From Patescibacteria group bacterium (GTDB taxonomy: Bacteria > Patescibacteriota > Minisyncoccia > Portnoybacterales > GWB1-42-6): a DNA stretch of 64,000 nucleotides. Positions 91 through 63,800 of the stretch are shown here, in pieces (position 1 is the first letter of the stretch; the number at the start of each line of letters is the position of its first letter). The notes under the pieces are model-generated. The model made no database searches. It saw only the letters and a program-made list of their open reading frames with translations, and was not told the DNA's origin. The DNA is taken from NCBI GenBank assembly GCA_022709865.1, contig JAKLIA010000001.1, positions 127,591-191,590 of the forward strand, given 5' to 3'. The translations under genes were made by a program, and so were the position numbers.

Positions 91-110
91 CATTTATTAA
101 GCAAATAAAT

Positions 111-136
111 CCCCACACCTATGCATAGGTGTGGGG
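111..136. repeat. 26-bp perfect palindrome CCCCACACCTATGCATAGGTGTGGGG between convergent genes; a second copy lies at 56233-56258
   Basis: Read directly: arms CCCCACACCTA and TAGGTGTGGGG are reverse complements; flanked by A/T runs; sits at the 3' end of the minus-strand flavodoxin gene, so it could be a hairpin terminator or REP-like element. Confidence 0.6.
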
Positions 137-180
137 ATAAAAACTCCGTTAAAAAAGGCGGGGTTTTCTTTTTTTGTAGA

Positions 181-53909: not shown

Positions 53910-54908
53910 ATGAAAATATTAATAACCGGCGGAGCTGGTTTTATGGGCTCTAATTTCATTAAATATATAATGGCCAAACACTCAGATTGGCAAGTGGTTA
54001 ATTTGGATAAATTAACTTATGCCGGGAACCTGGAAAACCTAGCGGAAGTTTCACAAAATAAAAATTACGCTTTTATAAAAGGGGATATAGCCAATAAGGA
54101 AGACGTGGCCAGAGCCATTGGCGAGGGCGTGGATAAAATTATCAATTACGCGGCTGAAACTCATGTGGACCGTTCGATTTTGGAGCCGGACGCTTTCATC
54201 AAAACCGATGTTTTTGGCACCTATACGCTGCTCGAAGCAGCGCGTAAGTATAATGTCGCACAATATATACAGATCTCAACTGACGAAGTCTTTGGCTCGA
54301 TAAAAGAAGGTTCTTTTGATGAACAAAGTCCGTTTGAGCCCAATAGCCCTTATTCGGCTTCCAAAGCCGGCGCTGACCACCTCTGCCGGGCTTATTTTAA
54401 AACTTATAATTTGCCGGTCATCATTACACATTCTTGCAATTTTTATGGGCCAAACCAATATCCGGAAAAATTAATTCCGCTTTTTGTAACTAATTTATTG
54501 GAAGGCAAAAAAGTTCCGGTCTATGGCCAAGGCCAGCAGATGCGGGAATGGATATTTACCCAGGACCACTGCAAAGCAGTGGAAGCAATAATGGAAAAAG
54601 GGCAGTTAGGGGAAGTTTATAATATTGGCACAGGCTATGAAAAAACTAATATGGAAATTACCAAGTTCATTTTGCAGGAGCTGGGCTGTGGCGAAGAGAT
54701 GATAGAATATGTAAAAGATCGGCCGGGACACGACTGGCGTTATGCTATAAACTCAAAAAAGTTGAGGGGATTGGGTTGGCAACCGGAATCTTCTTGGGAA
54801 GAAGGATTGCGTCGCACAATAAATTGGTATAAGGAAAATGAGGCTTGGTGGAAAAAAATAAAATCCGGCGAGTATCTGGAGTATTATAAAAAACAATACG
54901 GGAAATAA
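53910..54908 (+). CDS. rfbB: dTDP-glucose 4,6-dehydratase
   Basis: 332 aa; TGGAGFIGSN-like Rossmann motif (TGGAGFMGSN), YSASK catalytic motif, extended SDR. Confidence 0.88.
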   Translation: MKILITGGAGFMGSNFIKYIMAKHSDWQVVNLDKLTYAGNLENLAEVSQNKNYAFIKGDIANKEDVARAIGEGVDKIINYAAETHVDRSILEPDAFIKTDVFGTYTLLEAARKYNVAQYIQISTDEVFGSIKEGSFDEQSPFEPNSPYSASKAGADHLCRAYFKTYNLPVIITHSCNFYGPNQYPEKLIPLFVTNLLEGKKVPVYGQGQQMREWIFTQDHCKAVEAIMEKGQLGEVYNIGTGYEKTNMEITKFILQELGCGEEMIEYVKDRPGHDWRYAINSKKLRGLGWQPESSWEEGLRRTINWYKENEAWWKKIKSGEYLEYYKKQYGK

Positions 54909-56197: not shown

Positions 56198-56230
56198 GGA
56201 CCTCGTTTAAAAAAACGAGGTCTTTTTTTT
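56198..56230 (+). terminator. intrinsic terminator (GGACCTCGTTT-AAAAAAA-CGAGGTC plus TTTTTTTT)
   Basis: Read directly. Confidence 0.75.
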
Positions 56231-56232
56231 AT

Positions 56233-56258
56233 CCCTACACCTAGGCATAGGTGTAGGG
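56233..56258. repeat. 26-bp perfect palindrome CCCTACACCTAGGCATAGGTGTAGGG (second copy of the element at 111-136), abutting a TTGACC -35 box
   Basis: Arms CCCTACACCTA and TAGGTGTAGGG are reverse complements; relative to copy 1 the arm differences are compensatory; TTGACC at 56264-56269 is 18 nt from TATCAT. Confidence 0.6.
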
Positions 56259-56318
56259 ATTTGTTGACCGAAAGGTGCTAGTAGGTTTATCATTATAAGC
56301 AATAGAATAAATTGTTTT

Positions 56319-56909
56319 ATGAATAAGAGCCTTGATTTTTCACGGAGGGCTCTGAATTTAAGTTTGGCTATTTATCGGATAACAACCAAGTTCCCAAATG
56401 GCGAAGCGCTATCTGGGCAAATGCGGAAAATAGGCAATGAGGTAGCGGGCGATTTAGCAGCCAATAATTTTTCTGGCATCGAAAAAAAGATTGATCGCTT
56501 AAAAATATATTTTGCCATTGCCAAAGCGCAAAACTGGGTTAAGCCGATAAATTGGTCAATTCTGGAAAAAGAATATTGCAAATTAAAAATGGAGGTTGAT
56601 TTTGAGTTGAGAGCGGGCGAGACAGAAGAAAGCGAAGAAGCTATAATAGTGTCGCACAATATTAAGGAGGTAAAAAAACGGAATCGCCTGAAATCTGCTA
56701 TTCCGGCCCAAGAAAGGTTAAATTACCGCCAATCAAAGATCCTGACTGCCTTGGATAAGAAAAGCGGCTTAAAGATGTCCGAATTGGTTCCCCTTTTTAA
56801 TGACGAGATATCAGAACGCACTTTGCGCAATGAACTTCAAGACATGGTTCGGGGTGGTTTGATAAAAAAGAACGGGACAAAAAAATACACAGAATATTTG
56901 AAAGGGTAA
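56319..56909 (+). CDS. putative transcriptional regulator: N-terminal four-helix-bundle domain plus C-terminal winged-helix DNA-binding domain
   Basis: 196 aa; N-terminal RRALNLSLAIYRITTKFPNGEALSGQMRKIGNEVAGDLA resembles the four-helix-bundle proteins found in rRNA intervening sequences; the C-terminal SKILTALDKKSGLKMSELVPLFNDEISERTLRNELQDMVRGGLIKK looks wHTH-like. Confidence 0.45.
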   Translation: MNKSLDFSRRALNLSLAIYRITTKFPNGEALSGQMRKIGNEVAGDLAANNFSGIEKKIDRLKIYFAIAKAQNWVKPINWSILEKEYCKLKMEVDFELRAGETEESEEAIIVSHNIKEVKKRNRLKSAIPAQERLNYRQSKILTALDKKSGLKMSELVPLFNDEISERTLRNELQDMVRGGLIKKNGTKKYTEYLKG

Positions 56910-56910
56910 T

Positions 56911-56970
56911 TTCTATCGGCAATCTATCGGCAACTTGTTGCCGATAGATTGCCGATAGATTGCCGATAGA
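56911..56970. repeat. hairpin built from tandem 11-bp repeats: CTATCGGCAAT x2, a GTTG spacer, then ATTGCCGATAG x3
   Basis: Read directly; about 24 bp of perfect inverted symmetry with a repeat-copy imbalance of 2 versus 3; fills the whole intergenic gap before rfbA. Confidence 0.7.
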
Positions 56971-56973
56971 AAT

Positions 56974-57777
56974 ATGGTAAAAAAAGGCATAATTTTGGCC
57001 GGCGGAACAGCCACTCGCTTGTTTCCGCTAACTGCCACCACTTCCAAGCAGCTTCTCCCGGTTTATGACCGGCAGATGATTTTTTATCCGTTGAACACCC
57101 TCATCAAAGCGGGTATCCGCGATATTTTAGTGATCGTTTCTCCTGAGCATAGCGGTCAATTTTTGAACCTGCTAGGTTCGATCTTTAAAAGCTATGGCGT
57201 GCACCTTTATTTTGAGGTGCAAAAAGTGCCGCGGGGCCTGGCGGAAGCCTTTATTTTAGGCGAAAACTTTATTGATAATAATAGCGTGGCTTTAATATTG
57301 GGCGATAATATTTTTGAAGATGATTTTGCCAAAGCGGTTAAAAGCTTTAAGTCTGGTGGCCAGATATTTGCCAAGAAAGTGGCCGACCCGGAAAGATTAG
57401 GCGTGGTGAAGTTCGATAGCCAAAAAAGAGCAGTTCAAATAGTGGAAAAACCTAAAGAATGGATCAGTGATTATGCGGTGCCTGGCTTTTATATTTATGA
57501 TAAAAATGTGGTAGCCATTGCCAAGAAAATTAAGCCATCGGATAGAGGAGAAATAGAGATAACGGCGGTGAATAATGAGTATCTAAAAAACGGCAAATTA
57601 AAAGTTGGTTTGATAAAAGGCGAATGGCTGGATGCCGGAACTTTTGATTCTTTGCTGGAAGCCGGCTATATCGTTAAAACAAAGAAATTGTATAAAAACT
57701 TCCATCCTTTGGTTGATAAGGCGATTGCGGATTTTAACGAAGAATTGAAGGGGATTTGCAAGAAAAAATTATTTTAA
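56974..57777 (+). CDS. rfbA: glucose-1-phosphate thymidylyltransferase
   Basis: 267 aa; GIILAGGTATRLFPLT...KQLLPVYD N-terminal nucleotidyltransferase motif. Confidence 0.8.
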   Translation: MVKKGIILAGGTATRLFPLTATTSKQLLPVYDRQMIFYPLNTLIKAGIRDILVIVSPEHSGQFLNLLGSIFKSYGVHLYFEVQKVPRGLAEAFILGENFIDNNSVALILGDNIFEDDFAKAVKSFKSGGQIFAKKVADPERLGVVKFDSQKRAVQIVEKPKEWISDYAVPGFYIYDKNVVAIAKKIKPSDRGEIEITAVNNEYLKNGKLKVGLIKGEWLDAGTFDSLLEAGYIVKTKKLYKNFHPLVDKAIADFNEELKGICKKKLF

Positions 57778-57805
57778 AAAATCTTTATTTTATTAAGCTA
57801 AAAAC

Positions 57806-58672
57806 ATGACTAAACAAATCAAAAAAGCGATCGTGGCGGTAGCGGGTTCGGGCACGCGCCTTTTGCCAGCTACCAAGGCTATGCCTAAAGAGATGCTGCC
57901 TATCGTGGATAAGCCAATTATCCAGCTAATTGTTGAAGAATTGGTTGCGGCCGGGATAGAAGATATTATCTTGGTGACCAAGTGGGATAAAAAGCCGCTG
58001 GAAGACCATTTTGACCACAATTGGGCCTTGGGAAACGACCTTAAAAATGCCGGCAAGGAAGAGCTTTGGAACCAGATAAAGAATATCTCTGAAATGGCTA
58101 ATTTTATTTATGTCCGCCAGAAGGGCCCTTATGGCAATGGCACACCGGTTTTATGCGCGGCCAATCTAGTTGATGATGAACCATTCATGTTCGTTTGGGG
58201 TGATGATCTGGTTAAATCAAAAGTGCCTTTTGCCAAGCAAATGGTTGACGATTTTGCCAAGCATGGTTTGCCGATGATCGGGGTCCAGGAAGTATCCAAA
58301 GAAGATGTTTCAAAATACGGCATTGTGAAGCTTAAAGAAGGCTCTATGGAGATAGAAGATATTATAGAAAAGCCGGCAGCGGAAAAAGCGCCGTCTTGCT
58401 TTGCGGATTTTGGCCGGATGATACTGAACCAGGAAATAGTGGAAATATTAAAAGAAACCGCTTTAGGCAAGGGCAATGAATTGTGGATGGTGGATGCTAT
58501 CCGAACTTATGTGAAGAAGGGCAATAAGTTTTTGGCTAAAAAAGTTGAAGGCGGGGAATGGCTGACAACAGGCGACCCGATAAATTATTTGAAGGCTATT
58601 TTAAAATACGCTGCCGATAGGGAGGATATTAAAAAAGAGTTGGCTGAGTTCATAAAAAAGAACTTCTGCTAA
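57806..58672 (+). CDS. galU: UTP--glucose-1-phosphate uridylyltransferase
   Basis: 288 aa; [30 protein letters not shown] signature. Confidence 0.8.
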   Translation: [288 protein letters not shown]

Positions 58673-58681
58673 TGACCGTTT

Positions 58682-59191
58682 GTGGCTAAAATTACCGAAC
58701 AACAATTTTTGGAGTTTTACGATAAAAATGTCGGCAAGATCTACCGCTACATCTATTTTCGGGTTGGCGCCCAAGAACTGGCCCAAGACTTAACCAGCGA
58801 AGTTTTTCTTAAGTCTTGGCAAAGGCTGAACCAAGAAGGCGCCAAAATAGTGGATAATCCCCGCGCTTTTTTTTACCAAGTAGCGCGCAATTTAATCGTC
58901 GATTTCTATCGGCAAAAAGATAAGGCGCCTTTGTCATTGGAAGAAATTGCCGATAGAACTATTGCCGATAGAAATGACGGCCCCAGCGAGACTGCTTCAG
59001 TGGCTTTAGATATGCAATCGGTAAAAAAGGCTTTAATGCACTTGAACGAAGACTACCGCGAAATTATAATTTGGCGGTATCTAGACGAATTAGAAATCAA
59101 GGAAATCGCCGAAATCTTGAATAAGAGAGAGGGGGCGGTCAGAACCCTTCTTTCTCGCGCTTTAGCTGATTTAAAGGGGATTTTAAAGTAG
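58682..59191 (+). CDS. RNA polymerase sigma factor, ECF (sigma-70 regions 2 and 4), GTG start
   Basis: 169 aa; region 2 (IYRYIYFRV...DLTSEVFLKSW) and region 4 HTH (IIIWRYLDELEIKEIAEILNKREGAVRTLLSRA). Confidence 0.8.
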   Translation: MAKITEQQFLEFYDKNVGKIYRYIYFRVGAQELAQDLTSEVFLKSWQRLNQEGAKIVDNPRAFFYQVARNLIVDFYRQKDKAPLSLEEIADRTIADRNDGPSETASVALDMQSVKKALMHLNEDYREIIIWRYLDELEIKEIAEILNKREGAVRTLLSRALADLKGILK

Positions 59192-59249: not shown

Positions 59250-60314
59250 ATGGAAGATAAAGAACTCATAACTAAGATCCAAGTGCTTAAAGAAATTAAA
59301 CCCAGTGAGGACTGGGTTTTGTCTTGCCGTGGCAAGCTGGCTTTTCGCTTAGAAATGGGGCGGAAACAGGACCTTCTGAAAAAAGATACCTCAACTTTAA
59401 AGGAACTTTTCGCCTTTTTGGGCAATACCAACCGGCAGCCGTCTTTTAACTTAGCTTATAGCCTTTTTATTGCTGCTCTAGTGGTTCTGGGCGGCGGTGG
59501 GGCAACTGTTTGGGCAGCAGCGCAAAGTTTGCCTGGCAGCCCGTTGTATCCTGTAAAATTGGTGATGGAAAAAGCCCGGGTGCAAATGTCTCTATCGGCA
59601 GAAAGCCGGCTTCAACTGCAAACACAGATTGCCGATACCAGATTGCAGGAATTGGAGTTTGTGGTTAATGGGCAGGATTCCGATGCTTTGAAGGTGGAAA
59701 AGATATTCCAGGTGGCCGAAGGCATGCAAGACCAATTGACTATTGCCAATGATGAGCTTCCTAAGGTTGGCGATAAGGCTGAGCCGCAGAAATCATTAGC
59801 GGTGGCTAAAATGGTCAGCGATAAGGCTAGCCAAGCCAGCAAAGCCATAATAGCGGCTAAAGAGAGCTTATCAAGTGATATGAAGTCGGATTTGACCGCT
59901 AAGCTGTCCGATGCGGTTAAAGCAGCGGAAAAAACAGGGCTGGCAGCTTTGGAAGCGATGATAATGAGCCAAGATATTTCTAGTACCACTAAGGCTGAAA
60001 TAGCGGTTAAGCTGCAAGAGGAAATCAAAAATACCGAAGAGCAGGTTTTAGTTAAAGAGCAGAAAATTGCCCAAGCCAACTCTTTTGCCGATAAATTGCC
60101 GATAAGGGCGGTTTTGATCAATCAATTCGAACAAATACACGATTTGCTAGATAAGGCTGCAGAAAGCTTGAATAAGGGAGATTTTAGCGGAACCCTGGAA
60201 ATGCTTAAAGCGGCTAAGGCGATAGATGATGGAACAGATAAAGTGACGGAAAACGCGGTTATGCCGGAAGTTAAGGGGGCGGCCAGCTCTACTGTGGATA
60301 ATCTGGGGAAATAA
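59250..60314 (+). CDS. putative anti-sigma factor / DUF5667-like single-pass membrane protein
   Basis: 354 aa; short cytoplasmic N-terminus, TM (FNLAYSLFIAALVVLGGGGATVWAAA), long helical extracytoplasmic domain; sits immediately downstream of the ECF sigma; the role is inferred from context. Confidence 0.45.
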   Translation: MEDKELITKIQVLKEIKPSEDWVLSCRGKLAFRLEMGRKQDLLKKDTSTLKELFAFLGNTNRQPSFNLAYSLFIAALVVLGGGGATVWAAAQSLPGSPLYPVKLVMEKARVQMSLSAESRLQLQTQIADTRLQELEFVVNGQDSDALKVEKIFQVAEGMQDQLTIANDELPKVGDKAEPQKSLAVAKMVSDKASQASKAIIAAKESLSSDMKSDLTAKLSDAVKAAEKTGLAALEAMIMSQDISSTTKAEIAVKLQEEIKNTEEQVLVKEQKIAQANSFADKLPIRAVLINQFEQIHDLLDKAAESLNKGDFSGTLEMLKAAKAIDDGTDKVTENAVMPEVKGAASSTVDNLGK

Positions 60315-60353
60315 GGGTGTTTAAGGCAAAAGCCGCTATATTTTAATAATTGG

Positions 60354-60382
60354 TTGACTATCGGATAGTTATTTTATATACT
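60354..60382 (+). promoter_or_regulatory. near-consensus sigma70 promoter (TTGACT, 17 nt spacer, TATACT) about 460 nt upstream of the giant surface-protein gene
   Basis: Read directly; the -35 overlaps the palindrome CTATCGGATAG; there is no other gene between it and 60844. Confidence 0.6.
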
Positions 60383-60843
60383 TATTTTATAGAAAAAAAC
60401 CCATTTTCTGCCTTAATTAAGGGCTTTGTCCTTATCTGGGCACGGAAAGGAACTGAAGGTCGTCAAGGCATTTGAGGTTGAAATCCCTCATGTGTTTTGA
60501 GTTGTCGTTTCCGAATGGATTTTTGAAACAAAAAAATAATAAAAAAATAAAAAATCAATTCAGGGATTATTTTTACTTGGCCCCCATTGCGCATCTGTTT
60601 CTTATTGGAACACAGCGGAATGAAAAAAAGGGGGGTGGCAGATTAAACCTCGAGGACACCTCGCTAATATCTTTCGTTATTCGATAAGATAGAAAGCGTA
60701 AATCTCGTTTTAACGAGACCAGGGGGTAAAATTCTGCGGCGCAAGCCCAACAGGATTCTCGCAGGAAGAAATGAGCTTATGAATTGATATTAATTCTGAC
60801 AATTAAAGAAATTTAATTGCAGGATAAAAACAACAAATTAACA

Positions 60844-63800
60844 ATGAGTAAAACATTTAAAAAAGTCGTTTCCGTTACTACCAGCGTGACCACAATTTTG
60901 TGGTTGTCTGGCGTTGCGGCTTTGGCTCCTATGGCTGCTTTTGCTGCCACCATCAATGAAGGTGACACCATCAAGACTGCCACAAGCCCGGATGTTTATA
61001 TTGCTAAATATGTTGGCGCGAAGAAATTCAAGAGACTTATCTTGAACCCTTCCGTCTTCAATAGCTATAAGCATTTGAGCTGGAGCGCTATCAAAACCGT
61101 GACTCAAGCGGAAATGGACGCTTTTACAACTTCTGATTTAGTGAGAGCTTTGGGTGATGCACCGGTTTATAAATTGGTTCCGAACGGTGATGAAGGTACA
61201 AAACAATGGGTCAACATGACTGCCGAGGCGTTTACCGCCGCCGGTTATGATTGGGATTCCATTTATGTAATCAACAACACTGATCGCGACAACTATACGA
61301 CTGGCGCTGCTATCACTGGCGGCACTTCTGTTTCTCCTTCAACCACTGTTACCCCGGGTGTGGCCGGAACCTTAACGGTTTCTTTGGCTTCTGACACTCC
61401 GGCGGCTGGCATTGCGCCTTTGAAGGCGGCCCGAGTTCCGTTTACTAAGTTTGCTTTGACAGCTGGCGCGACTGATGTCACTATCACCGCGATCACTGCT
61501 CAGCGAACCGGTTTAGCGGCTGACACTGCTTTGTCTTCCGTTGCCTTAATTGACAACGCGACAAACTTGCAGGTTGGTTTGAACCAGACCTTGAACTCTG
61601 TTCACCAAGTCACGATTCGCGAAACTATCACCATTCCGGCTAATACCACCAAGTATTATACTTTGGCGGCTAACATGCCTTCATCCTCAGCCAGTGCTTC
61701 TGGCCAGGTTGCTTCTTTGGCTTTGACGGCTATTGAAACTACTTCAACAGTTTCCGGCTCTTTGCCGATAACTGGTAATGGCCAGACAATCAATGAAACT
61801 TTGGCTATCGGCACTTATTCCGGTGCGGCCGGTTCATTGAACGTATCAACTTCTACTAAAGAAGTTGGCGTAACCAATTTCAGTTTCTCTGGCGTCAAAT
61901 TGACTGCCGGCTCAGCTGAAGACGTGACTGTTTATTCCATCAGGTTTAACCAGTCCGGTTCAGCGGCTGCTTCCGATTTGTCCAATGTCATAGTGACTGA
62001 TGGAACAACTAACTATGCCACGACCATCTCTTCCGATGGTAAATACTACACCGCTTCTTTTGGTGCCGCTGGCTTATTGATCGCCAAGGGGCTAAACAAA
62101 GAGTTTACGGTGAAAGGTAATATCGTTAGCGGTTCAGCTCGGACTATCAAGTTCGATATTTATCGCTCAACCGATATCGTGGTAAAGGGTAATGTCTATG
62201 GTTATTATTTGACCATTGATGCCAATACCTCAAATCCGTTCAATACCACCACTAACCCAGTTTTTATGGGTAGCACAATTACTGTGAGTGCTGGCACTTT
62301 GCGGGTTGACAAGAGCGCGACTGGTGCTCCGGCTGCCAATATTACTATTGGCGCGACCAATCAAATTTTGGGCGCTTTTGATTTCGTAGCTGCTGGTGAA
62401 TCTGTTAACGTGGCGAGCATGGTTTTTACCATCACCACTACGACTGTCACCAATAACGGCAAATTGACCAACATTACTTTGTCTAAAGCTGACGGAACAA
62501 TCTTGGCTGGTCCGGTTGACCCGACCTATTCTTCAAGCGGTGTCAATTTGGCGACCTTTACCGGTACTGTTACTTTCCCGGTTGGCACAACCCAGGTTAT
62601 CGTTAAAGGTAATTTGGATAACAACTGGACTGCTAACGACACGATTATCGTGAGTTTGAGCACTCCGGCGACTAAAGTCACCAGTATTACTGGCGTTACA
62701 ACCGGCAATACTATCACTGCCACCCCATCCTCAGCGGTTTCGGCTAACACCATGACCGTGAAGGCTGGCTCTTTGGTTGTGTCAGTTTCTGGTACTCCGG
62801 TTGCCCAGACCGTTATTATGGGTGTAACTGGCTATACTTTTGCCAATTATATCTTTGACGCTTCTGCTTCCGGCGAAGATGTTAAAGTCACTACGATTGA
62901 TTTGCAAGATATCAACGTGACTTCAGCGGAAAGCGAACTTTCCTCAATGCAATTATGGGATGGTTCAACCGCTTTGAACACCGGCAGCAATGTGCCAAAC
63001 TTGACCGATGCGGCTGGCACTAATACCCAGACCTTTACTCTGGACAGCGGTTTGATAATTCCGAAAGGAACTTCAAAGACCATTGCCTTGAAGGGTAATA
63101 TTTCTGGTTCTGCCACCGCCGGCGGCAAGTTCCAGTGGGGCTTGGCAAGCGGCGCGGCTGTGACTGCGACCGGTATGTCAACCACTCTTAACGTTGCCGA
63201 GACCGTTAATGCTGCTGATGGCTCAATAATGACTATCGCGGCGTCCGGTCAATATAGCGTGGCTTTGGATTCTTCAACTCCGACCGGTAAATTGATTGCC
63301 GCGAACACCACGGGCAATACTATGACCGTGTTGAAGTTCTACGCTACCTCTGAACAGATCAACGTCACCAAGGTTCGCTTGTCCTTGAACAATGCCAGCT
63401 CTTCTGGCAATGATTTGAGCCAAGTTTACATCTATGATGGCTCGACTCTGTTGGGCCAGGGTGTCTTGGGTATCGGTAACGCGACTGGTAAGACTAACAA
63501 TGCCAGCTCAACCTTTACTTTGACCACCCCGTTGCAGATTCCGGCCAATACCGACAAGATCGTTACGATCAAAGCCGATATTGCCCCGATCTACACTGCC
63601 AATACCGTTGCGACTGCTGGCCATATGATCGCTATTGATTTCTATGGTTCAACCAGCTCCAGCGAAAACGTTGGTAATGGTGCGTCATCCGGCGTTGAAG
63701 TTCTAAACTACAGCGTAACTACTGCCCAGACTCCGGCTTATATCTTTAAGTCTGTGCCGACAGTGGCTGCTGTGGCTTTGCCTACTTCTTCCTTGACCAA

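What the first reader, a model, noticed from the sequence alone, without database searches (positions are those of the whole stretch)
56911..56970. Iteron-like hairpin of 11-bp ATTGCCGATAG repeats upstream of rfbA; the same 11-mer recurs twice inside the ECF sigma gene
The entire 64-nt intergenic region is built from CTATCGGCAAT x2, GTTG, then ATTGCCGATAG x3, giving an inverted repeat of about 24 bp with an unequal copy number. There is no downstream U-tract, so it is not an obvious intrinsic terminator. The identical 11-mer ATTGCCGATAG occurs twice in tandem inside the sigma-factor CDS at 58946-58971 (encoding IADRTIADR), with the inverse TCTATCGGCAA at 58904-58914. A related palindrome, CTATCGGATAG, overlaps the -35 box of the surface-protein promoter at 60354. 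Possibilities are a binding-site array for the adjacent regulator or sigma/anti-sigma pair, a slipped-strand (phase-variable) switch controlling rfbA, or a miniature repeat element.
Basis: seen in the sequence. Interest (0 to 1): 0.55.

Follow-up and report, generated by a model that had tools for sequence, protein, structure and literature searches.

The report
Conserved regulator-binding array before sigma operon
The 64-base spacer is a conserved array of five 9-base boxes that is most likely the DNA docking site of the winged-helix regulator encoded just upstream, and matching boxes are written into the codons of the sigma and anti-sigma genes downstream, in an uncultured Candidatus Portnoybacteria genome where gene regulation is essentially unstudied.

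Summary
The spacer at 56910-56973 is TCTATCGGCAA x2, CTTG, TTGCCGATAGA x3. The core TTGCCGATA occurs 15 times in the window against 0.8 expected, and 11 of these lie in this operon.

It is not tied to rfbA. In 14 related loci from Portnoybacteria and other Parcubacteria, 1-3 inverted plus 1-4 direct boxes start 0-11 nt after the stop codon of the upstream 196-aa gene (76 nt in one locus with an insertion). That gene encodes a four-helix bundle joined to a DeoR-type winged helix. The next gene downstream may be rfbA, another nucleotidyltransferase or the sigma gene itself. Same-orientation boxes are mostly spaced 11, 20-21 or 32 nt, in helical phase.

A distant relative with a changed recognition helix carries a different five-copy array (TAGGACA x3, TGTCCTA x2) at the same place.

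Boxes inside the sigma and DUF5667 genes are fixed at synonymous sites (Fisher p=5e-8 and 1e-5). An outgroup encodes the same DFYRQK peptide with other codons.

Best reading: a multi-box operator for the adjacent regulator, with auxiliary intragenic operators. Binding itself is inferred, not shown.

I found no support for a terminator, a phase-variable switch or a mobile repeat. The CTATCGGATAG palindrome at 60358 is not conserved.

The parts
56319..56909 (+). Gene for the 196-aa candidate regulator. It has an N-terminal four-helix bundle (residues 3-104), a disordered linker (104-127) and a C-terminal DeoR-type winged helix-turn-helix (130-195; recognition helix SERTLRNEL).
   Evidence: Pfam HTH_DeoR and MCM_C wHTH match weakly, below the curated cut-off. 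AF2 gives pLDDT 79.6. Foldseek matches the N-domain to 2gsc/2rld (IVP-type bundle) and the C-domain to ArsR/CadC/BlaI/MarR-type wHTH. S165, R167, T168 and R170 are invariant, and E166, L169 and N171 are at least 90% conserved, in 52 homologues.
56912..56933 (-). Two inverted boxes (TCTATCGGCAA x2; core TATCGGCAA at 56914 and 56925). The first core starts 4 nt after the regulator gene's stop codon.
56938..56970 (+). Three direct boxes (TTGCCGATAGA x3; cores at 56938, 56949, 56960), period 11 nt. The last core ends 5 nt before the rfbA ATG.
56974..58672 (+). Two nucleotidyltransferase genes (rfbA/rmlA-like 56974-57777; second NTP_transferase 57806-58672) lying between the array and the sigma gene. 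They are absent from this position in L009, L011, L057 and L141.
   Evidence: Pfam; synteny
58682..59191 (+). ECF sigma factor gene (regions 2 and 4). It starts 9 nt after the preceding gene, so it is probably co-transcribed.
58904..58915 (-). Intragenic inverted box in the sigma CDS (TTC TAT CGG CAA = FYRQ).
   Evidence: TAT and CGG are codon-invariant in 11 of 11 lineages. Outgroup L143 encodes DFYRQK as TAC CGC CAG.
58946..58971 (+). Two intragenic direct boxes in the sigma 2-4 linker (ATT GCC GAT AGA ACT ATT GCC GAT AGA = IADRTIADR), 15 nt apart.
   Evidence: ATT, GCC and GAT are codon-invariant. The number of boxes in this linker ranges from 3 to 7 between lineages.
59250..60314 (+). DUF5667 membrane protein gene, a putative anti-sigma partner.
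   Evidence: Pfam DUF5667; conserved position after the sigma gene in all loci
60085..60105 (+). Two intragenic direct boxes in the 3' part of the DUF5667 gene, read in two different frames (GCC GAT AAA | TTG CCG ATA = ADK LPI), period 11 nt.
   Evidence: GCC, GAT, CCG and ATA are codon-invariant in 11 of 11 lineages, against 3 of 127 other conserved columns. In L009 and L138 a 21-nt insert makes the spacing 32 nt.
56198..56293 (+). Likely start of the transcription unit: a canonical terminator (56198-56233), then a TTGACC-18-TATCAT promoter-like site (56264-56293) ahead of the regulator gene.
   Evidence: consensus scan only

Best explanation
The spacer is a multi-box operator. Five copies of the box TTGCCGATA (two inverted, three direct, 11-nt period) are the DNA docking sites of the regulator encoded immediately upstream. 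That protein has an oligomerising four-helix bundle tethered by a flexible linker to a DeoR-type winged helix.

The central inverted pair would take two winged helices head to head. The in-phase direct boxes would take further subunits of the same oligomer on one face of the DNA. The array lies inside or at the head of the transcription unit regulator - (nucleotidyltransferases) - ECF sigma - DUF5667 anti-sigma-like protein. Occupancy would therefore gate transcription running from the regulator gene into the sigma module, most simply as a roadblock or repressor.

Three further boxes in the sigma coding sequence and two in the DUF5667 coding sequence would act as auxiliary operators, for cooperative binding, looping or extra roadblocks.

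What is shown: the anatomy; conservation of position and sequence; helical phasing; synonymous-site constraint on the intragenic boxes; and a change of motif in a lineage with a changed recognition helix.

What is inferred: that this particular protein is the binder; that binding is to DNA rather than RNA; the sign of regulation; and the oligomeric state.
For: 1. Position. In 14 loci whose regulator is 41-82% identical, an array of 1-3 inverted plus 1-4 direct boxes begins 0-11 nt after the regulator's stop codon (76 nt in L136, which has an inserted element). This holds whatever gene follows.

2. Sequence rather than structure is conserved. The arms stay TT(G/t/a)CCGATA while the loop or spacer varies (CTTG, TGAA, TAAGA, AAGCG, AGGCT, TTATG). 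Variants such as TTTCCGATA opposite TATCGGCAA break pairing instead of compensating.

3. Phasing. Same-orientation spacings are 11 (x13), 12, 18, 19, 20 (x3), 21 (x5) and 32.

4. Co-variation. L141 has a regulator only 30% identical, with helix TKRTLRRDF instead of SERTLRNEL. At the same place it has TAGGACA x3 + TGTCCTA x2, and these are all five copies of that 7-mer in 12.5 kb.

5. The recognition helix is almost unchanged in 52 homologues that go with the TTGCCGATA box: S165, R167, T168 and R170 invariant, E166, L169 and N171 at least 90%.

6. The fold is a bundle plus a wHTH of the kind found in DNA-binding repressors.

7. Intragenic boxes are under selection at the nucleotide level. In sigma, 7 of 8 box columns are codon-invariant against 3 of 95 others (p=4.7e-8). 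In DUF5667 it is 4 of 5 against 3 of 127 (p=1.4e-5). A non-box (I/L)AD peptide in the same gene varies freely. Outgroup L143 encodes DFYRQK with different codons. The DUF5667 boxes are read in two frames. Sigma linkers gain boxes that yield IADK/FADKLPI peptides.

8. Local concentration: 11 of 15 exact boxes in 64 kb lie in this operon.
Against: - No binding data exist.
- In L141 the sigma factor has diverged as well (49% identity), so the change of motif could track another protein. That co-variation rests on a single lineage.
- I found no locus that has the sigma operon but lacks the regulator, so there is no clean negative control. L012, which I first took for one, simply starts inside rfbA.
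- Every array can also fold as an RNA hairpin.
- The 11-nt spacings arise automatically from tandem duplication, so only the 20-21 and 32-nt cases are independent evidence for phasing.
- The boxes in the sigma CDS are 15 nt apart, which is out of phase.
- No promoter could be placed convincingly relative to the array, so the sign and mode of regulation are guesses.
- A second conserved motif in the same cluster (GTCGCACAATA) has no assigned binder and could be this regulator's site instead.
Confidence: 0.6

Rival explanations
1. The boxes are a protein-binding array, but the binder is some other factor: the ECF sigma holoenzyme (an autoregulated promoter) or a regulator encoded elsewhere in the genome.
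For: ECF sigma operons are typically autoregulated (established knowledge), and the array lies at the head of the sigma module. In L141 the sigma factor has diverged along with the motif. The second motif, GTCGCACAATA, could be the wHTH's real site.
Against: ECF promoters are bipartite, with different -35 and -10 elements and a single orientation. Here there are 2-8 copies of one box in both orientations. No -35/-10 arrangement with a workable spacer or start point fits: the last box ends 5 nt before the ATG in the window. The array stays glued to the wHTH stop codon (0-11 nt) while its distance to the next gene ranges from 5 to 292 nt.
Confidence: 0.17
2. The element works as RNA. The hairpin would terminate, pause or process the transcript after the regulator gene. 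In the alternative register (56909-33 / 56949-73) it would also hide the rfbA start codon, with translation of the upstream gene choosing between registers.
For: The fold is very stable (-45.4 kcal/mol, z -8.8). There are two perfect pairing registers. The array begins within the footprint of a ribosome stopping at the upstream stop codon and ends 5 nt before the ATG in the window, L137 and L005. All relatives keep at least one inverted pair.
Against: There is no U-tract, although this genome has canonical terminators. In most relatives the stem is only 9 bp, and several carry an uncompensated mismatch (L005, L011, L137). The sequence is conserved, not just the pairing. Extra direct boxes lie outside any stem yet are conserved and in phase. 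In L009, L057, L062, L136 and L007 the array is 60-292 nt from the next start codon. The two codon-fixed direct boxes in DUF5667 have no inverted partner nearby.
Confidence: 0.12
3. It is a slipped-strand (phase-variable) switch. Gain or loss of 11-nt units would turn expression of the downstream genes on and off within a population.
For: The units are perfect tandem repeats. Copy number differs between species: 2+3 here, 2+2 in L004, 1+2 elsewhere, and up to 3 inverted + 3 direct boxes by scan in L142, or about 4+4 if degenerate boxes are counted.
Against: Three assemblies of this genome from different samples carry the identical array and 0 mismatches over 8-12 kb. Only 2-3 units per run, which is short for a contingency locus. 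The same boxes are conserved as single non-tandem copies and inside coding sequences, which slippage does not explain.
Confidence: 0.04
4. It is a dispersed miniature repeat or REP-like element, or a chance or codon-driven oligomer.
For: These genomes do carry hairpin and TIR mini-elements in intergenic regions. The 8-mer GCCGATAG is mildly enriched outside the operon as well.
Against: No second copy of the array exists in 64 kb. Its position is orthologous across species down to 41% regulator identity. The rest look like chance: all gap lengths occur equally and GC ranges 0.24-0.68. Chance is excluded by the shuffles.
Confidence: 0.02

Closest known systems
Multi-operator repressor systems with intragenic auxiliary operators (lac O1/O2/O3, gal OE/OI, E. 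coli deo O1/O2/OE); from general knowledge
   Same: There are several copies of one recognition sequence: a main site at the head of the operon and further sites inside downstream coding sequence. The regulator is oligomeric and its gene is adjacent. The HTH is of DeoR type.
   Different: The main site is an array of 2-8 short (9-nt) boxes in mixed orientation rather than one long palindrome. The regulator lacks the DeoR sugar-phosphate sensor domain and has its HTH at the C-terminus behind a four-helix bundle. The intragenic boxes lie in the genes of a sigma/anti-sigma pair and shape their peptide sequence.
Direct-repeat boxes of winged-helix response regulators (PhoB pho boxes, OmpR, WalR): half-sites repeated every 10-11 bp; from general knowledge
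   Same: Short boxes repeated with a period of about 11 bp (one helical turn), bound side by side by winged-helix domains.
   Different: No receiver domain or histidine kinase is present. The wHTH is of the DeoR/ArsR-like type, not the OmpR type. An inverted pair is always present.
Plasmid iterons with inverted half-iterons in the rep promoter
   Same: Tandem direct repeats plus an inverted pair next to the gene of the protein presumed to bind them.
   Different: The units are 11 nt, not 17-22 bp. There is no rep gene, origin, DnaA boxes or AT-rich unwinding region. The locus is chromosomal and syntenic within a cell-envelope gene cluster.
23S rRNA intervening-sequence protein / Avd four-helix-bundle family (PDB 2gsc, 2rld; DGR Avd)
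   Same: The regulator's N-terminal domain has this fold (Foldseek TM 0.75-0.80 normalised to 2gsc; profile hit to 2gsc at E=0.004). Avd is a pentameric barrel (PMC6182149), and the window array has five boxes.
   Different: Known members are stand-alone proteins of about 115-130 aa with no DNA-binding domain. Here the bundle is fused to a wHTH. There is no reverse transcriptase or DGR nearby. Pentamer formation is not tested, and box numbers in relatives range from 2 to 8.

Membership tests
Transcription-factor operator array (local regulator plus its site) | Orthologous position and sequence conserved across species, beyond the flanking intergenic sequence | tested here: met
   14 loci; boxes are conserved while loops, spacers and flanks diverge
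Transcription-factor operator array (local regulator plus its site) | Dyad and/or direct repeats spaced in helical phase | tested here: met
   Inverted pair with a 4-7 nt gap in 11 of 14 loci. Same-orientation spacings are 11, 20-21 or 32 nt in 22 of 25 cases. The 11-nt cases are not independent of tandem duplication.
Transcription-factor operator array (local regulator plus its site) | Adjacent gene encodes a DNA-binding domain whose specificity residues co-vary with the site | tested here: inconclusive
   wHTH predicted. Helix nearly unchanged where the box is invariant (S165, R167, T168, R170 invariant; E166, L169, N171 at least 90%). One divergent lineage (L141) has both a different helix and a different box. 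This is n=1, and the sigma factor also diverged there.
Transcription-factor operator array (local regulator plus its site) | Direct, sequence-specific binding and a regulatory effect | not testable with these tools
   Needs EMSA, DAP-seq or a reporter assay
DeoR family regulator | N-terminal HTH_DeoR domain scoring above the Pfam threshold | tested here: not met
   17.2 bits against a cut-off of 21, and the domain is C-terminal (residues 137-184)
DeoR family regulator | C-terminal DeoR-type sugar-phosphate sensor domain | tested here: not met
   No such Pfam or NCBIfam hit. The other domain is a four-helix bundle.
Intrinsic (Rho-independent) terminator | GC-rich hairpin immediately followed by a U-tract | tested here: not met
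   Hairpin yes, but the tail is ATTGCCGATAGAAAT. The scan does not call it, although it finds a canonical terminator at 56198-56233.
Plasmid/chromosomal iterons | 17-22 bp direct repeats at a replication origin next to a rep initiator gene | tested here: not met
   11-nt units. The neighbours are rml genes, a wHTH gene and a sigma/anti-sigma pair. The GC skew has constant sign across the locus.
Phase-variable simple-sequence contingency locus | Repeat-number polymorphism within a population or strain set | tested here: inconclusive
   Identical in three consensus assemblies. Read-level data were not available.
MITE/REP-type dispersed repeat | Many copies in unrelated genomic contexts | tested here: not met
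   Single array in 64 kb. The metagenome pattern hits of Portnoybacteria type are all at this one locus.
IVP/Avd four-helix-bundle family (regulator N-domain) | Four-helix bundle fold similar to solved members | tested here: met
   Foldseek to 2gsc: TM 0.75-0.80 (normalised to target), rmsd 1.5-2.4 A; also 2rld. Profile against the PDB hits 2gsc at E=0.004. Pfam PF05635 itself is not hit.
IVP/Avd four-helix-bundle family (regulator N-domain) | Pentameric assembly | not testable with these tools
   Avd is pentameric (PMC6182149). The oligomeric state of this protein is unknown.

The most novel reading that the evidence does not exclude
A previously undescribed class of regulator from the candidate phyla radiation, an Avd/IVP-like (possibly pentameric) four-helix bundle fused to a winged helix, wraps a five-box array. 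It also reads boxes that have been written into the coding sequences of an ECF sigma factor and its anti-sigma partner. The sigma 2-4 linker and the DUF5667 tail (IADK, FADKLPI repeats, 3-7 boxes) would then be protein sequence dictated by operator DNA, a clear case of dual-use codons in a regulatory feedback loop. A bolder variant is that the Avd-like domain recognises the boxes in the mRNA.
Probability: 0.35. Interest if true: 0.7.

Novelty: new variant of a known kind. Interest (0 to 1): 0.5.

Why it matters
Candidate phyla radiation bacteria cannot be grown alone, and I found no published regulator-operator pair for them in two literature searches.

This locus offers a concrete, testable pair: a 196-aa protein and a 64-bp DNA. 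It heads a conserved cell-envelope module of dTDP-sugar genes, an ECF sigma/anti-sigma pair and a ~1,200-aa surface protein, which probably governs the surface these episymbionts present to hosts.

The intragenic boxes are also a clean natural example of operator sequence constraining synonymous sites. They even generate peptide repeats in a sigma-factor linker. This matters for anyone interpreting codon conservation or low-complexity linkers in small genomes.

Tried and rejected
- Terminator: no T-tract, and the scan does not call it.
- Promoter inside the array: I tried to place -35/-10 pairs using box spacings of 11 and 21 nt in the window, L007, L011, L137 and L140. The spacers come out at 12 or 20-23 nt, and the implied start falls after the ATG. 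Rejected.
- Possible internal promoter in the regulator's 3' end (TTGAT(A/T)-N16/17-A-rich; TTG codon invariant in 11 of 11). The -10-like part is explained by conserved N-K codons, so this is left open as weak.
- Known RNA family: Rfam found nothing at the array or in the 56.1-61 kb region.
- Phase variation: three assemblies are identical.
It returned mostly chance matches plus a few unrelated satellite-like arrays, so it could not measure dispersal within a genome.
- The genome-contig scan with the sigma alignment returned only 4 relatives. The viral-contig scan returned none.
- L012 as a 'no regulator, no array' control: retracted, because the contig starts inside rfbA.
- CTATCGGATAG at 60358 as a related operator: not conserved in relatives.
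- A box-like copy at 59629 (QIADTR in DUF5667): its codons vary between lineages, so it is not a constrained box.
- Literature searches for DUF5667 and for regulation in Patescibacteria found nothing relevant.
- The afdb50 fold library was unavailable.

Full report
**What is there.** The window comes from an uncultured Candidatus Portnoybacteria genome (Patescibacteria/CPR). The 196-aa product of ORF 56319-56909 is identical to an NCBI MAG protein of that name. The same DNA occurs with 0 mismatches over 8-12 kb in two assemblies from other samples, and in a third with 19 mismatches, none at the array.

The 64-nt spacer 56910-56973 lies between that ORF and an rfbA/rmlA-like nucleotidyltransferase gene (56974-57777). 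It consists of TCTATCGGCAA x2, CTTG, TTGCCGATAGA x3. It forms perfect inverted repeats in two registers (23 and 25 nt). As RNA it would fold at -45.4 kcal/mol (z -8.8).

There is no T-tract. The consensus scan does not call it a terminator, although it finds a textbook terminator 700 nt upstream at 56198-56233.

The 9-nt core TTGCCGATA occurs 15 times in the window against 0.82 expected. Eleven of these lie between 56.9 and 60.1 kb: five in the spacer, three in the ECF sigma gene, and three in the DUF5667 gene, of which two prove to be constrained.

**Gene context.** The surrounding genes, all on the + strand, are as follows:
- rmlC-like, rmlB-like and rmlD genes, then a small ORF.
- A terminator followed by a promoter-like site (56198-56293).
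- The 196-aa gene, then the array.
- Two nucleotidyltransferase genes.
- An ECF sigma factor gene (58682-59191), which starts 9 nt after the previous gene.
- A DUF5667 membrane protein gene, the likely anti-sigma partner.
- A long leader, then a gene for a protein of more than 1,050 aa with no Pfam hit.

**The array belongs to the upstream gene, not to rfbA.** I fetched the loci of homologues of the 196-aa protein (41-82% identity) and of the sigma factor.

In all 14 loci of this clade, boxes start 0-11 nt after the stop codon of the 196-aa gene. The exception is L136 at 76 nt, where a hairpin element is inserted. Each array has 1-3 inverted boxes followed by 1-4 direct boxes.

The distance to the next gene ranges from 5 to 292 nt. 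In L009, L011 and L057 the next gene is the sigma gene itself, with no nucleotidyltransferase genes between.

Loops and spacers differ in every lineage, while the arms stay TT(G/t/a)CCGATA. Variants such as TTTCCGATA opposite TATCGGCAA (L005, L011) or opposite TATCGGTAA (L137) break base pairing rather than compensating. Conservation is therefore of sequence, not of an RNA stem.

Spacings between same-orientation boxes are 11 (x13), 12, 18, 19, 20 (x3), 21 (x5) and 32 nt. These are close to one, two or three helical turns. The 11-nt cases follow trivially from tandem duplication. The 20-21 and 32-nt cases, which have unrelated filler between the boxes, do not.

**The candidate binder.** AlphaFold2 with a 52-sequence alignment (mean pLDDT 79.6) predicts three parts:
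- a four-helix bundle (residues 3-104);
- a disordered linker (104-127);
- a winged helix-turn-helix (130-195).

Foldseek matches the bundle to 2gsc and 2rld, of the 23S-rRNA-IVS-protein family. It matches the C-terminal domain to the wHTHs of ArsR/CadC, BlaI/MecI, MarR and AspA. A profile search of PDB sequences agrees weakly: 2gsc at E=0.004, and Csa3 and CggR wHTHs at E of about 0.3-0.9.

Pfam sees only a sub-threshold HTH_DeoR match. The protein is not a DeoR-family member, because it has no sensor domain and the HTH is at the wrong end.

The recognition helix SERTLRN(E/D)L is almost unchanged across the 52 homologues (S165, R167, T168, R170 invariant; E166, L169, N171 at least 90%). This fits an invariant box.

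The bundle family includes Avd, a pentameric barrel (PMC6182149). Five boxes here, in L139, in L141 and (counting two degenerate inverted boxes) in L136 make a pentamer attractive. This is speculation, because other lineages have 2-8 boxes.

**Co-variation.** L141 is a distant relative: its sigma is 49% identical and its regulator 30% identical, with helix TKRTLRRDF. It has the same gene order, regulator then sigma then DUF5667 then giant protein.

In the spacer after its regulator gene, with the first copy overlapping the stop codon, it carries a different five-copy array. This is TAGGACA x3 (spacings 21 and 18 nt) followed by TGTCCTA x2, with a central palindrome TAGGACAAATGTCCTA. All five copies of that 7-mer in 12.5 kb lie there.

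The same architecture with a different word and a different recognition helix is the strongest single argument that the array is this protein's site. There are two caveats: it is one lineage, and its sigma factor has diverged as well.

**Boxes inside genes.** In every lineage of the TTGCCGATA clade the sigma CDS carries an inverted box (TAT CGG CAA, within DFYRQK). After a 31-nt gap it carries two direct boxes 15 nt apart (ATT GCC GAT, within EEIADKxIADK). The DUF5667 CDS carries two adjacent direct boxes read in different frames (GCC GAT AAA | TTG CCG ATA, giving ADK-LPI).

I made codon alignments of 11 lineages. Conserved amino-acid columns have a mean pairwise codon identity of only about 0.5, so synonymous sites are essentially saturated. 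The box columns are different:

| Gene | Box columns codon-invariant | Other conserved columns codon-invariant | Fisher p |
|---|---|---|---|
| sigma | 7 of 8 | 3 of 95 | 4.7e-8 |
| DUF5667 | 4 of 5 | 3 of 127 | 1.4e-5 |

The fixed codons include the six-fold degenerate Arg (CGG 11/11) and the least-used Ile codon (ATA 11/11).

There are three controls:
- A box-like (I/L)AD peptide elsewhere in DUF5667 uses varying codons.
- Outgroup L143, which lacks the system, encodes the same DFYRQK as GAT TTT TAC CGC CAG AAA.
- Where the amino acid changes (A to T or V), the change falls on the degenerate third or fourth box position.

Some sigma genes have gained boxes, giving linkers such as EEIADKSFADKLPINVADKFIADK (P0106/L142, seven boxes in total). 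In L009 and L138 a 21-nt insert separates the DUF5667 boxes by 32 nt. The DNA word, not the peptide, is therefore the unit under selection.

**Mechanism proposed.** The regulator would bind the array as an oligomer: a dyad plus in-phase direct boxes. The array lies downstream of the regulator's own promoter-like site and upstream of the rest of the unit. Occupancy would therefore limit transcription into the nucleotidyltransferase, sigma and anti-sigma genes. The intragenic boxes would serve as auxiliary operators, as lacO2 or galOI do.

Which steps are shown and which are inferred is set out in the best explanation. I could not place a credible promoter within the array: the spacers are wrong and the implied start falls beyond the ATG (and manual checks). 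Activation cannot be excluded.

**Rivals.**
- An RNA hairpin (terminator, processing site or translational coupling device) explains the tight juxtaposition to the stop and start codons in this genome. It does not explain the uncompensated mismatches, the conserved unpaired direct boxes, the variable distance to the next gene, or the direct-only boxes in DUF5667.
- A sigma-dependent promoter, or a regulator encoded elsewhere, remains possible.
- Phase variation, a mobile repeat and chance are poorly supported or excluded.

**Comparison with what is known.** Functionally this looks like a local repressor with multiple operators, some of them intragenic, combined with a PhoB-like 11-bp box periodicity. 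It is not an iteron system, not a DeoR-family member and not an intrinsic terminator; in each case a defining feature was tested and not met. Two literature searches found no description of this regulator type, of DUF5667, or of operators in Patescibacteria.

**Verdict.** The feature is real and conserved, and it is very probably a protein-binding cis-regulatory array. It is most likely the operator of the adjacent bundle-wHTH regulator (confidence about 0.6), and it controls an ECF sigma/anti-sigma cell-envelope module. I class it as a new variant of a known kind. The regulator architecture and the codon-embedded boxes are the unusual parts. Interest 0.5.

Noticed in passing
window 54255-54265, 54811-54821, 56651-56661: A second conserved word, GTCGCACAATA(T/A), is always on the + strand and exact in every lineage. 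It sits at three orthologous places read in three frames: twice in the rmlB-like gene (NVAQY, RRTIN) and once in the hypervariable linker of the regulator gene (SHNI; codons TCG CAC AAT invariant 12/12). About 0.03 copies are expected per 64 kb and 3 are seen. L005 keeps a copy in an rmlB remnant. No binder or function is assigned; it could be another operator, an internal promoter or an RNA site.
   Followed up: partly
window 60353-60843 (leader before the >1,050-aa protein gene at 60844): A housekeeping-type promoter (TTGACT-17-TATACT) is followed by a ~450-nt leader. Long blocks of it are conserved in all relatives, for example GGCACGGAAGGGAACTGCAGGTCGTCAAGCATTTGAGGTTGAAATCCCTCATGTGTTTTGAGTTTCGTTTCCGAATGGCTTTTTGAAA and GGGGGGTGGCAGAT...AACCTCGAGGACACCTCGCT, with lineage-specific hairpin insertions between them. 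There is no Rfam match. RNAalifold on the first block gives 22 pairs, 6 with compensatory changes. It is a candidate unclassified structured leader RNA.
   Followed up: partly
window 109-138 and 56231-56260; L136 5734-5885, 9670-9870; L007 5038-5230; L011 5780-5930: There is a family of perfect hairpins or terminal inverted repeats (ATCCCCACACCTATG/CATAGGTGTGGGGAT; ATCCCTACACCTA...TAGGTGTAGGGAT; ATCCCGCACCTTT...AAAGGTGCGGGAT). They occur alone or flank 60-190-nt inserts in intergenic regions of these genomes. In L136 one is inserted between the box array and rfbA. They look like miniature inverted-repeat elements.
   Followed up: no
L007 893-1182 (also L008; start of the same element in L004 1970-2001): Two small TIR elements (CCAGGTAGTGAAAATTCGGC...GCCGAATTTCTACTACCTGG and a CCGGGTAGTGAAAATTTGAC variant) are inserted exactly at the rfbA start codon, each preceded by a duplicated ATG. 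The real gene start is therefore displaced by ~290 nt.
   Followed up: no
window 56319-56909 (regulator gene): Further columns in this gene are codon-invariant across 10-12 lineages: Pro CCC 12/12 (the rarest Pro codon) in CCC-CTx-TTT, Leu TTG 11/11 in GLIKK, Tyr TAT 12/12 near the stop, and Arg CGG and Ala GCT near the N-terminus. In all, 14 of 67 conserved columns are invariant, more than in the sigma or DUF5667 genes. This hints at additional nucleotide-level constraints.
   Followed up: no
L143 5470-5874: In a more distant relative, the gene in front of the sigma/DUF5667 pair is a stand-alone 119-aa 23S_rRNA_IVP/bAvd four-helix bundle with no wHTH. The 45-nt spacer holds three GTTGT(A/G)AGTT direct repeats. 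This may be an ancestral or alternative form of the module.
   Followed up: no
L033, L048, L058, L093, L115, L132 (metagenome loci): These unrelated contigs carry long satellite-like arrays built on ATTGCCGATATCGGCAAT-type palindromes with ~30-nt periods. They were picked up only because they contain the searched palindrome, and they carry no homologue of the regulator or sigma.
   Followed up: no
window 1-64000: 63 of 65 long ORFs are on the + strand. GC skew is strongly positive (0.12-0.22) until about 60 kb, then falls to about 0 and turns slightly negative by 62-64 kb. This may mark a strand-bias boundary near the giant surface-protein gene.
   Followed up: no
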